Source: Escherichia coli O127:H6 str. E2348/69
Lineage (GTDB): Bacteria; Pseudomonadota; Gammaproteobacteria; Enterobacterales; Enterobacteriaceae
DNA: 64,000 nt
NCBI RefSeq assembly: GCF_000026545.1
Contig: NC_011601.1
Strand: one strand, 5' to 3'
This document shows positions 48,407 to 50,477 of the stretch, one piece after another; the stretch's first letter is position 1, and every line of letters starts with the position of its first letter. The translations under genes and the position numbers were made by a program. The notes under the pieces were generated by a model. That model ran no database searches. It had not been told where the DNA came from and saw only the letters and a list, made by a program, of their open reading frames with translations.

Positions 48407-48442
48407 GAAAAGCCCGGTATGCGTTTGCATCCGGGCTTTTTT
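48407..48442 (+). terminator. Rho-independent terminator after feoC
   Basis: aaaagcccgg-tatgcgtttgcat-ccgggctttttt. Confidence 0.8.
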
Positions 48443-48587
48443 GCGTGCGGCTTTCCATAAAAATGCAATTCTTGCAGTACAACGTAAGTTCCTCTGAAAG
48501 CATCTCGCAGGGATGAAAACTCGCTAATGCACAGGTGTGGAGTGGCGCGTAGAGTCACGGCATTCAAACAACAGGTGAAGGAACGCC

Positions 48588-49469
48588 ATGAGCAAAAAGC
48601 AGAGTTCCACCCCACATGATGCACTGTTCAAACTCTTTTTACGCCAACCGGACACGGCACGCGATTTTCTTGCGTTCCATTTACCGGCACCTATTCACGC
48701 GCTCTGTGATATGAAAACCCTCAAGCTGGAGTCGAGCAGCTTTATTGATGATGATCTGCGTGAAAGCTATTCCGACGTGCTGTGGTCGGTGAAAACGGAA
48801 CAAGGACCGGGATATATCTATTGTCTGATTGAACATCAAAGCACCTCAAACAAACTGATCGCATTTCGCATGATGCGTTACGCTATTGCCGCAATGCAAA
48901 ATCACCTGGATGCCGGATACAAAACGTTGCCGATGGTGGTGCCATTGTTGTTTTACCACGGCATTGAAAGCCCCTATCCCTATTCACTGTGTTGGCTGGA
49001 TTGTTTCGCCGATCCCAAACTGGCAAGGCAGCTTTATGCCTCTGCATTTCCGCTGATTGATGTCACTGTCATGCCTGATGATGAAATCATGCAGCACCGG
49101 CGCATGGCGCTGCTGGAGCTAATTCAAAAACATATACGTCAACGCGACCTGATGGGGCTGGTAGAGCAAATGGCCTGCTTATTAAGTAGTGGATACGCTA
49201 ATGACAGACAAATCAAAGGGCTGTTTAATTACATACTACAAACCGGCGATGCGGTACGTTTTAACGATTTTATCGACGGCGTTGCCGAACGTTCACCGAA
49301 ACACAAGGAGAGTTTAATGACTATTGCGGAAAGATTGCGGCAAGAAGGGTTTCAGAAAGGTATACGAGCTATCGCCAAAACCATGCTGGATGCCGGAGTC
49401 CCTCTTGAGGACGTTCTGCGATTTACCAGCCTGACGGTTGAAGACCTTGCTGAAATAAATCATCAATAA
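48588..49469 (+). CDS. yhgA: Rpn-family recombination-promoting nuclease / 'putative transposase' YhgA (RpnA), 293 aa
   Basis: ORF 48588..49469 (+), 293 aa ([28 protein letters not shown]...), typical Rpn/YhgA N-terminus; no terminal inverted repeats seen around it. Confidence 0.88.
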
Positions 49470-49486
49470 CGTAAAGGATGGTTTTA

Positions 49487-49660
49487 ATGACAGATGCAGA
49501 AAGAGAATATCTTATTAGTTACCTGATTGGTTATTTATTGGGTCGACGCCTGGAAGCCCTGGATATCGCCAAAAGAATGCTGTAATCCGGAGTCCCTCTT
49601 GCAGACATCATGCGCTTTACCGGGGTGTCAGAAGAAGAGTTGGCTGCGGCGAGCCAGTAA
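49487..49660 (+). pseudogene. Small Rpn-C-terminal-domain-like ORF interrupted by an in-frame TAA (32 codons + stop + 24 codons)
   Basis: ATG 49487 gives MTDAEREYLISYLIGYLLGRRLEALDIAKRML, then TAA (49583-85), then in frame SGVPLADIMRFTGVSEEELAAASQ*. The second part parallels the YhgA C-terminus [25 protein letters not shown] and shares the 15-mer ccggagtccctcttg (49393-49407 and 49587-49601). Confidence 0.45.
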
Positions 49661-49688
49661 AGTTCTGTCTCGCCATTTCAAAAGCCAC

Positions 49689-50477
<789 letters not shown>

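What the first reader, a model, noticed from the sequence alone, without database searches (positions are those of the whole stretch)
49470..49665. Rpn C-terminal-like mini-ORF with an in-frame ochre stop and a duplicated 15-mer immediately downstream of yhgA (rpnA)
Downstream of yhgA a short ORF (ATG 49487) encodes 32 residues, hits TAA (49583-85), then continues in frame for 24 codons whose translation (SGVPLADIMRFTGVSEEELAAASQ) mirrors the YhgA C-terminus ([25 protein letters not shown]). The DNA 15-mer ccggagtccctcttg occurs at both 49393 and 49587. This looks like a partial tandem duplication of the rpnA 3' end, now interrupted by a stop. It could be a decaying fragment or a small gene encoding only the Rpn C-terminal module.
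Basis: seen in the sequence. Interest (0 to 1): 0.4.

Follow-up and report, generated by a model that had tools for sequence, protein, structure and literature searches.

The report
Broken spare antitoxin gene after rpnA
Just downstream of the rpnA toxin-antitoxin nuclease gene, this E. coli strain carries a second, stand-alone copy of the gene's small antitoxin module, cut short by one stop codon; this is an ordinary, decaying member of a gene type already described for other rpn genes.

Summary
The window is E. coli E2348/69. Window 49474-49660 is a tandem duplicate of the rpnA internal small-protein unit (ribosome-binding site, start codon, C-terminal domain). The two copies share 83 nt at 75% identity (z=26 against shuffles).

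The downstream copy is a stand-alone "RpnSs"-type gene. Zhong et al. 2023 described this kind downstream of rpnC and rpnE (ypaA); their main text does not mention one for rpnA. Intact 57-aa orthologues (Pfam HTH_Rpn_C) sit at the same place in E. ruysiae and E. whittamii, with CAA (Gln) where E2348/69 has TAA.

In E. coli, 853 of 5,426 complete genomes have the two-copy layout, and 852 of those carry the TAA. None has CAA, TAT or GAA. Further lesions occur in some strains: start-codon loss, Y16*, L25P, and G35* in 25 genomes.

The stop falls at the end of predicted helix 1, so at most a 32-aa helix-only peptide can be made.

K-12's single rpnA 3' end is orthologous to the downstream copy. Together with an O145 chimera, this suggests the two copies collapsed into one more than once.

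Verdict: a pseudogenised rpnA-linked RpnSs gene. It is a new member of a known kind and of low interest.

The parts
48588..49469 (+). rpnA (yhgA), 293 aa, encoding the full-length RpnA(L) nuclease toxin
   Evidence: ORF. NCBIfam NF007361 RpnA equivalog at 676 bits (cut-off 583) and Pfam Transposase_31. RefSeq annotation WP_000039064.1.
49305..49469 (+). In-gene RpnA(S) unit: ribosome-binding site AAGGAG 49305-49310, internal start ATG 49317 (codon M244), 50-aa C-terminal domain, stop 49467-49469
   Evidence: Coordinates checked. M244 is the internal translation start mutated in Zhong et al. 2023 (PMC10400941). A 12-nt (4-aa) indel polymorphism lies between 49369 and 49370 relative to UTI89, 536 and E. 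ruysiae.
49474..49489 (+). Ribosome-binding site (AAGGA 49474-49478), 8-nt spacer and ATG (49487) of the downstream copy, duplicated from the in-gene RBS and internal start
   Evidence: Repeat D3 covers the ATG, its first codons and part of the spacer. Sequence. The site begins 4 nt after the rpnA stop, so co-transcription with rpnA/rpnA(S) is inferred.
49487..49582 (+). The 32 codons of the downstream copy (rpnA-Ss) that remain translatable: MTDAEREYLISYLIGYLLGRRLEALDIAKRML, equal to predicted helix 1 only
   Evidence: AlphaFold2 of the stop-restored protein gives helix 3-33 at pLDDT 90.8. Deposited in GenBank only as 'hypothetical protein', on more than 1000 contigs.
49505..49564 (+). Four-residue repeat region of helix 1 (EYLI SYLI GYLL GRRL EALD): five units, against three in K-12 RpnA(S) and in E2348/69 in-gene RpnA(S), and four in UTI89
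   Evidence: Protein alignment and sequence. The repeat concept comes from PMC10400941. The periodicity was read by eye; Tandem Repeats Finder did not report it.
49583..49585 (+). Ochre TAA at codon 33; CAA (Gln) in E. ruysiae and E. whittamii, GAA (Glu) at the orthologous K-12 rpnA position
   Evidence: T at this position in 852 of 853 two-copy complete E. coli genomes. No CAA, TAT or GAA variants found.
49586..49660 (+). Untranslated in-frame tail (24 codons plus TAA) encoding helices 2 and 3 of the HTH_Rpn_C domain; orthologous to the 3' end of K-12 rpnA
   Evidence: Almost identical to K-12 across this tail in the alignment. Aligns to PDB 7TH0 RpnA(S) residues 11-49, E=1.1e-13. Predicted helices 38-45 and 49-56.
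49689..50459 (-). bioH, the convergent downstream neighbour that fixes the right-hand boundary of the locus

Best explanation
Window 49474-49660 is a pseudogenised "rpnA-Ss": a second, stand-alone copy of the RpnS antitoxin module of the rpnA toxin-antitoxin (antiphage) gene.

Origin (inferred): a tandem duplication of the unit that runs from the ribosome-binding site through the internal start codon and C-terminal three-helix domain to the stop. The copy sits 4 nt after the rpnA stop, so it would be transcribed with rpnA and rpnA(S). This is the same layout as rpnE-ypaA in K-12.

State in relatives (shown): the copy is an intact 57-aa HTH_Rpn_C gene in E. ruysiae and E. whittamii.

State in E. 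coli (shown): in the lineages that keep two copies (mostly B2-type strains such as E2348/69, UTI89 and 536), a single C-to-T change turned CAA into TAA at codon 33. That position is the end of helix 1. Helices 2 and 3 are removed and at most a 32-aa helix-1 peptide is left.

Current status (inferred): the remnant is drifting and probably has no antitoxin function.

Other alleles (inferred): single-copy rpnA alleles, including K-12's, are best read as collapses of the two copies into one. That is why K-12's RpnA C-terminus matches the downstream copy.
For: **Duplication**
- 83 nt at 75% identity, z=26. The ATG and first codons are duplicated too, each preceded by an AAGGA(G) ribosome-binding site. 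BLASTP E=8e-10.

**Family**
- The restored peptide hits the RpnA(S) crystal structure 7TH0 at E=1.1e-13 and the RpnA equivalog C-terminus.
- AlphaFold2 gives three helices at pLDDT 90.8, with codon 33 at the end of helix 1.

**Intact orthologues at the same rpnA|Ss|bioH position, with CAA**
- E. ruysiae and cryptic-clade genomes and E. whittamii, all carrying a precomputed PF27070 HTH_Rpn_C hit.

**Stop codon fixed in E. coli**
- 853 of 5,426 complete genomes have the copy.
- 827 have the T by exact-word logic, and 25 more have TAA plus GGA>TGA at codon 35.
- No CAA, TAT or GAA variants.
- 15 of 15 sampled loci carry TAA.

**Drift**
- Among the 15 loci, codons 1-32 carry 6 nonsynonymous changes and 1 synonymous. 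The nonsynonymous set includes M1K start loss, Y16* and L25P.
- E2348/69 against E. ruysiae: the rpnA N-terminal domain has 29 synonymous and 0 nonsynonymous differences; Ss has 1 synonymous and 5 nonsynonymous.
- RefSeq's PGAP pipeline leaves the copy unannotated in nearly all listed genomes, and calls it a pseudogene with an internal stop in the one sampled genome where it is annotated.

**Known precedent**
- RpnSs genes lie downstream of rpnC and rpnE, and are lost by deletion or by fusion (PMC10400941).
- K-12 rpnE-ypaA has the same stop/RBS/ATG layout.

**Collapse alleles**
- K-12, O145:NM with the junction ...[20 protein letters not shown], and a two-copy allele with a K-12-like middle segment (L015).
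Against: - The ribosome-binding site, ATG and 32-codon frame are intact in 14 of 15 sampled genomes, so a helix-1 peptide is probably still translated. Helix 1 is the dimerisation interface in RpnA(S), so residual activity cannot be excluded.
- The two-copy E. coli lineages may simply be too young for neutral decay to be informative. The 6:1 ratio does not differ significantly from the neutral expectation, and it does not formally exclude weak constraint.
- Divergence of the Ss segment from E. ruysiae (about 3.5%) is lower than the feoC-rpnA intergenic region (12-15%). This could mean DNA-level constraint or recent exchange between species.
- The ancestral state is unresolved. E. whittamii carries both the K-12-like single-copy allele and the two-copy allele.
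- There are no expression data for this strain.
Confidence: 0.75

Rival explanations
1. The 32-aa ORF is a functional micro-protein. It would be a helix-1-only fragment that pairs with the long first helix of RpnA(L) or RpnA(S) and tunes the toxin/antitoxin balance, for example as an anti-antitoxin or a decoy.
For: - The ribosome-binding site (AAGGA, 8-nt spacer) and ATG are retained, and the ORF starts 17 nt after the rpnA stop with no terminator between them.
- The truncation falls exactly at the end of predicted helix 1.
- Helix 1 is the dimer interface and specificity determinant in RpnA(S) (PMC10400941).
- The TAA is fixed in 852 of 853 genomes, and no revertants were found among complete genomes.
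Against: - Independent strains carry start-codon loss, a second nonsense codon and a helix-breaking L25P. The ratio is 6 nonsynonymous to 1 synonymous.
- Helix 1 of Ss has five 4-aa units with a very different sequence (EYLISYLIGYLL...), against three or four units in the in-gene RpnA(S). One extra repeat was enough to abolish pairing in RpnC.
- No expression data are available.
Confidence: 0.12
2. The remnant acts at the DNA level, as a silent donor cassette. Recombination or gene conversion between the downstream copy and the in-gene copy would switch or diversify the RpnA C-terminus, and so the toxin-antitoxin specificity. This would be analogous to orphan C-terminal modules of polymorphic toxin loci.
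For: - Several chimeric alleles exist that join in-gene-type 5' sequence to Ss-type 3' sequence at different junctions: K-12, O145:NM, and P0013/L049.
- Ss itself is a mosaic: GRRLEALDIA is shared with another RpnS type in L049.
- Of the sampled loci, only E2348/69's in-gene copy has CCT, matching Ss exactly over the 15-mer.
- Zhong et al. note loss of rpnSs by fusion and speculate that RpnL promotes such recombination.
Against: - The chimeras show that recombination happens, not that the remnant is maintained for that purpose.
- Every collapse deletes the cassette, so the switch can only be used once.
- No evidence was found of repeated gene conversion within two-copy genomes.
- Some chimeras come from single metagenome contigs.
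Confidence: 0.1
3. The TAA is read through or suppressed, so a full-length 57-aa RpnSs antitoxin is still made.
For: The 24 codons after the stop remain in frame and largely intact in most strains.
Against: - The stop context is UAA-U, which from general knowledge is the most efficient terminator context in E. coli.
- 25 genomes have a second stop (TGA) two codons further on.
- The tail also carries P37H, I41T and M42L substitutions.
- No recoding signal or stable structure was found.
Confidence: 0.02

Closest known systems
ypaA (RpnE-Ss) downstream of rpnE in E. coli K-12, and RpnC-Ss in some strains (Zhong et al. 2023, PMC10400941)
   Same: - A stand-alone second copy of the RpnS module lies immediately after the parent rpn gene.
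- The ribosome-binding site and ATG are duplicated directly after the stop codon: K-12 has CATTAAAAGGAGAGATTAATG, and here the sequence is CAATAACGTAAAGGATGGTTTTAATG.
- The copy differs from the in-gene copy in its number of four-residue repeats in helix 1.
   Different: - It is linked to rpnA; the paper's main text names only rpnC and rpnE.
- In E. coli it is truncated by an ochre codon after helix 1, whereas YpaA is a full 61-aa protein shown to be expressed.
- Its repeat units are hydrophobic (x-Y-L-I/L) rather than mostly charged.
RpnA(S), the intragenic antitoxin of rpnA (PDB 7TH0)
   Same: - Homologous sequence: residues 19-57 of the restored peptide align to residues 11-49 of 7TH0, E=1.1e-13.
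- The same three-helix architecture is predicted.
- The tail is orthologous to the K-12 RpnA(S) C-terminus.
   Different: - It is encoded outside rpnA rather than within it.
- Helix 1 is two 4-aa units longer and very different in sequence.
- Helices 2 and 3 cannot be translated here.
Orphan C-terminal or immunity modules downstream of polymorphic toxin genes (Rhs, CdiA); an analogy drawn from general knowledge
   Same: A displaced or duplicated C-terminal module sits just downstream of the main gene, and recombination with it generates alleles with a different C-terminus.
   Different: There is no sequence or family relationship. Here the module is an antitoxin domain shared by toxin and antitoxin, and the copy is tiny (about 190 bp). 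Membership was not tested and is not claimed.

Membership tests
RpnS / RpnSs small antitoxin (HTH_Rpn_C, PF27070) | Sequence homology to an Rpn C-terminal (RpnS) domain | tested here: met
   PDB 7TH0 RpnA(S) at E=1.1e-13. RpnA equivalog positions 254-292 at E=2.9e-12. BLASTP to E2348/69 RpnA 262-288 at E=8e-10. Intact orthologues carry precomputed PF27070 hits. The local Pfam copy lacks PF27070, so the model itself could not be run.
RpnS / RpnSs small antitoxin (HTH_Rpn_C, PF27070) | Complete three-helix bundle encoded by one open reading frame | tested here: not met
   The restored sequence folds as helices 3-33, 38-45 and 49-56. TAA at codon 33 (49583-49585) removes helices 2 and 3. The stop is present in 852 of 853 two-copy E. 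coli genomes.
RpnS / RpnSs small antitoxin (HTH_Rpn_C, PF27070) | Own ribosome-binding site and start codon homologous to the internal translation start of the parent rpn gene | tested here: met
   AAGGA 49474-49478, 8-nt spacer, ATG 49487. Repeat D3 (49313-49334 against 49483-49504, 82%) covers the ATG, first codons and part of the spacer, and each ATG is preceded by an AAGGA(G) site.
RpnS / RpnSs small antitoxin (HTH_Rpn_C, PF27070) | Located immediately downstream of the cognate rpn gene (the RpnSs arrangement) | tested here: met
   The start codon is 17 nt after the rpnA stop. The position between rpnA and bioH is the same in E. ruysiae and E. whittamii. The layout matches rpnE-ypaA.
RpnS / RpnSs small antitoxin (HTH_Rpn_C, PF27070) | Variable number of four-residue repeats within helix 1 | tested here: met
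   Five units in Ss, three in K-12 and E2348/69 in-gene RpnA(S), four in UTI89. Within Ss itself no length variation was seen among the 853 genomes.
RpnS / RpnSs small antitoxin (HTH_Rpn_C, PF27070) | The protein is expressed and neutralises the cognate RpnL toxin | not testable with these tools
   This needs tagging or ribosome profiling plus toxicity and SOS assays, as in PMC10400941.

The most novel reading that the evidence does not exclude
The ochre mutation was not a loss of function. It would have created a new, lineage-specific 32-aa helix-1-only peptide, fixed in two-copy (B2-type) E. coli. The peptide would dock on the dimerisation helix of RpnA(L) or RpnA(S) and retune when the nuclease toxin is released, as a micro-protein anti-antitoxin. 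The untranslated tail would double as a recombination donor for C-terminal switching.
Probability: 0.08. Interest if true: 0.6.

Novelty: new member of a known kind. Interest (0 to 1): 0.25.

Why it matters
- **Annotation.** This explains an unannotated or "hypothetical protein" stretch between rpnA and bioH in about 16% of complete E. coli genomes.
- **Extension of a known gene type.** The RpnSs arrangement, known for rpnC and rpnE, also applies to rpnA. Intact versions exist in E. ruysiae and E. whittamii and could be tested experimentally.
- **Evolutionary footnote.** The well-studied K-12 RpnA(S) C-terminus (crystal structure 7TH0) corresponds to the downstream duplicate, not to the in-gene copy of two-copy strains. 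This is consistent with repeated duplication, collapse and mosaicism at this antiphage locus.
- **Overall.** It does not change how Rpn systems are understood.

Tried and rejected
- **RNA structure.** An inverted repeat (49454-49474 / 49519-49539) might have formed a regulatory hairpin around the Ss start. The RNA fold of 49440-49560 is no better than shuffles (z=+0.93). Rejected.
- **Rfam.** Only one sub-threshold match turned up, in the feoC-rpnA spacer, and nothing in the feature.
- **Promoter and terminator scan.** No promoter-like site, and no terminator between rpnA and Ss. Uninformative.
- **Tandem Repeats Finder.** It did not detect the diverged 12-nt units.
- **Local Pfam.** The copy lacks PF27070, so it gave only noise for the small peptides.
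- **Cross-species scan of genome contigs.** It returned only E. whittamii plus distant Bacteroidales, Clostridia and Verrucomicrobia Rpn-like hits. It missed E. coli, E. ruysiae, E. albertii and E. fergusonii, so the ancestral state could not be polarised.
- **Foreign origin of the in-gene C-terminus.** I looked for a source in another rpn paralogue or a plasmid. A sensitive blastn search hit only rpnA loci. Not supported at DNA level.
- **dN/dS for L012/L013.** The rpnA N-terminal comparison is invalid because of an unaligned 12-nt length difference. Ignored.
- **Paper supplements.** None are held for PMC10400941, so I could not check whether an rpnA-Ss appears in its supplementary figures.

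Full report
**Identity of the window and check of the observation**

The window matches E. coli E2348/69 (NZ_CP059840.2) at 100% identity over the queried 401 bases. The gene order is feoB-feoC-rpnA-bioH(-)-gntX.

rpnA occupies 48588-49469: NCBIfam RpnA equivalog at 676 bits, and Pfam Transposase_31.

- ATG at 49487, 32 codons, TAA at 49583-49585, then 24 more in-frame codons and TAA at 49658-49660.
- The 15-mer CCGGAGTCCCTCTTG at 49393 and 49587 only; shuffles gave a mean of 0.05 matches.

The similarity is much larger than the 15-mer.
- An ungapped 83-nt repeat (49370-49452 against 49564-49646) is 75% identical. It scores 41 against 8.7 +/- 1.2 for shuffles (z=26).
- A second repeat (49313-49334 against 49483-49504, 82%) covers the ATG, the first codons and part of the spacer before it. 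Each ATG is preceded by an AAGGA(G) ribosome-binding site.
- At protein level the stop-restored peptide matches RpnA residues 262-288 at 59% identity, E=8e-10.

**What the duplicated unit is**

Zhong et al. 2023 (PMC10400941) showed three things.
- rpn genes are gene-within-gene toxin-antitoxin and antiphage systems. The full-length RpnL nuclease is toxic.
- A small RpnS protein, translated from an internal start (M244 in RpnA), is the antitoxin.
- RpnS is a three-helix bundle whose long first helix forms the dimer interface. That helix carries a variable number of four-residue repeats that set pairing specificity.

In this window the internal start is ATG 49317 (codon 244), preceded by AAGGAG at 49305-49310. 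The downstream feature duplicates exactly this unit:
- AAGGA at 49474-49478, an 8-nt spacer, and ATG at 49487;
- a helix-1 region with five four-residue units (EYLI SYLI GYLL GRRL EALD);
- then ...IAKRML-stop-SGVPLADIMRFTGVSEEELAAASQ.

With the stop restored, residues 19-57 align to the RpnA(S) crystal structure 7TH0 at E=1.1e-13. AlphaFold2 predicts helices 3-33, 38-45 and 49-56 at pLDDT 90.8.

The ochre codon therefore sits at the end of helix 1. Only a helix-1 peptide of 32 aa can be made.

**It is a real small gene elsewhere**

A protein search found intact 57-aa versions (P0001-P0010), all with precomputed Pfam PF27070 HTH_Rpn_C hits.

Their contigs show the same rpnA | 57-aa gene | bioH arrangement in E. 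ruysiae and cryptic-clade "E. coli" genomes (L009-L014, L018-L019) and in E. whittamii (L047, L048).

In all of these codon 33 is CAA (Gln). The E. coli TAA is therefore one C-to-T transition away.

The same paper describes stand-alone "RpnSs" copies downstream of rpnC and rpnE (ypaA), and shows that YpaA is expressed. Its main text mentions none for rpnA. I retrieved K-12 rpnE-ypaA, and it has the same layout: stop codon, then AAGGAGAG, then ATG.

**Population picture in E. coli**

- 853 of 5,426 complete genomes carry the downstream copy, at 95% identity or more and with no length variation in the 123-nt probe. They include E2348/69, UTI89, 536, ST95 and APEC strains, and ATCC 11775.
- A 41-mer centred on the stop can only seed a megablast hit if the central T is present. 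It hit 827 genomes.
- The variant with an additional GGA>TGA at codon 35 hit 25 more. That gives TAA in 852 of 853.
- Probes with CAA, TAT or GAA hit nothing.
- All 15 loci I downloaded have TAA.
- Codons 1-32 in those 15 loci show six nonsynonymous polymorphisms (M1K start loss, A4V, S11I, Y16*, G19D, L25P) and one synonymous. The tail shows G35*, P37H, I41T, M42L and V47L against four synonymous changes.
- Between E2348/69 and E. ruysiae, the rpnA N-terminal domain has 29 synonymous and 0 nonsynonymous differences. Ss has 1 synonymous and 5 nonsynonymous.
- RefSeq's PGAP pipeline leaves the region unannotated in nearly all listed genomes, and calls it a pseudogene with an internal stop in the one sampled genome where it is annotated. 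GenBank submitters list the 32-aa ORF as "hypothetical protein" on more than 1000 contigs.

Together this is the signature of a disabled gene drifting. The sample is small, and the two-copy lineages may be too young for decay to be informative, so weak constraint cannot be excluded.

**Relationship to K-12 and other alleles**

K-12 lacks about 194 bp here. Its rpnA matches the E2348/69 in-gene copy up to ...CGGCAGGAGGGG, then continues with sequence orthologous to the downstream copy. K-12's CTT GAA TCC corresponds to CTG TAA TCC here, and the two are almost identical through the stop and into the bioH spacer.

All single-copy E. coli I sampled, and the E. whittamii reference genome, share the RpnA(S) form [30 protein letters not shown]....

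Three further alleles bear on how this arose.
- An O145:NM genome has a different single-copy chimera...[20 protein letters not shown].
- A metagenome contig (L015) has two copies, with an intact Ss carrying the K-12-like middle segment. Its junction shares only GGGG with the K-12 junction. That is too short for an assembly chimera, and it fits a microhomology deletion giving rise to the K-12 allele (inference).
- E. whittamii-like contigs carry yet another RpnS type (HRQG VQQG VQQG RRLEALDIAQ...) followed by a second copy.

The in-gene copy itself varies by a 12-nt (four-residue) indel between E2348/69 and UTI89, 536 or E. ruysiae.

So the rpnA 3' end is a hotspot of duplication, collapse and mosaicism. 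This fits the paper's remark that rpnSs genes are lost by deletion or by fusion with the rpn N-terminal region.

Which state is ancestral is not settled. E. whittamii has both layouts, and my cross-species scan recovered no other Escherichia species.

**Mechanistic conclusion**

- Shown: the duplication, the family assignment, intact orthologues, a fixed ochre codon, further lesions, and chimeric alleles.
- Inferred: origin by tandem duplication; co-transcription with rpnA and rpnA(S), since the gap is 17 nt with no terminator; loss of antitoxin function; and single-copy alleles as collapses.
- Most likely (about 0.75): a pseudogenised rpnA-Ss.
- Rivals: a functional helix-1 micro-protein (about 0.12), a DNA-level donor cassette (about 0.10), and read-through (about 0.02).

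**Negative results**

- No significant RNA structure.
- No Rfam family in the feature.
- No promoter-like sites.
- Tandem Repeats Finder did not see the diverged 12-nt units.
- A sensitive blastn of the in-gene C-terminal segment hit only rpnA loci, so there is no evidence that it was imported from another paralogue or a plasmid.

**Novelty and score**

The kind (RpnSs) is published. The rpnA-linked member, its pseudogenisation in E. coli and its intact form in sister species appear not to be described in the paper's main text. I could not check the supplements.

It is a new member of a known kind and of low interest (0.25).

Noticed in passing
L020 703-1833; L047 51-1181; L049 1-153 (E. whittamii and related contigs): In E. 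whittamii an IS200/IS605-family tnpB (OrfB_IS605, 376 aa) has replaced the nuclease part of rpnA. Only the RpnS unit or units remain upstream of bioH, as orphan antitoxin copies without their toxin. Three different RpnS configurations sit behind the same insertion.
   Followed up: partly
L052 554-818 (E. coli O145:NM FWSEC0002, between rpnA and bioH): An AbrB/MazE-family antitoxin and a PemK/MazF-family toxin pair is inserted between a chimeric single-copy rpnA and bioH. A second toxin-antitoxin system has therefore landed at the same spot.
   Followed up: no
L037 and L038 993-1367 (E. coli strains 21221 and 2/0; similar rows H11-H15): In a group of human isolates rpnA lacks its N-terminus and is annotated as a partial pseudogene ('Rpn/YhgA-type helix-turn-helix domain-containing protein'), while the K-12-type RpnA(S) coding part is retained.
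   Followed up: no
window 49369/49370: The E2348/69 in-gene RpnA(S) is one four-residue unit (12 nt) shorter than in UTI89, 536 and E. ruysiae (IRA-IAK against IRTNALNIAK). Only 16 complete genomes match window 49300-49700 at 99% or more. Since repeat number sets RpnL/RpnS pairing specificity, this is a strain-specific antitoxin allele.
   Followed up: partly
window 48407-48540: A weak, sub-threshold Rfam match (Bp2_287, 25.6 bits against a gathering score of 70, E=0.004) lies in the feoC-rpnA spacer. It overlaps what looks like the feoC intrinsic terminator (aaaagcccgg...ccgggctttttt, about 48409-48444). Probably chance.
   Followed up: no
window 48988-49626 compared with L009 (E. ruysiae): Divergence from E. 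ruysiae is lower across the 3' half of rpnA and the Ss copy (about 1-4%) than in flanking bioH (5-9%) or the feoC-rpnA spacer (12-15%). This may indicate a more recent exchange of this segment between species, or some constraint.
   Followed up: partly
L017 1501-1674 (metagenome scaffold, ERZ28626391): A single metagenome contig has TAT (Tyr) instead of TAA at codon 33 in an otherwise E. coli-type Ss carrying the G19D variant. It is either an apparent revertant to an intact 57-aa ORF or a sequencing error. No complete genome has this variant.
   Followed up: partly
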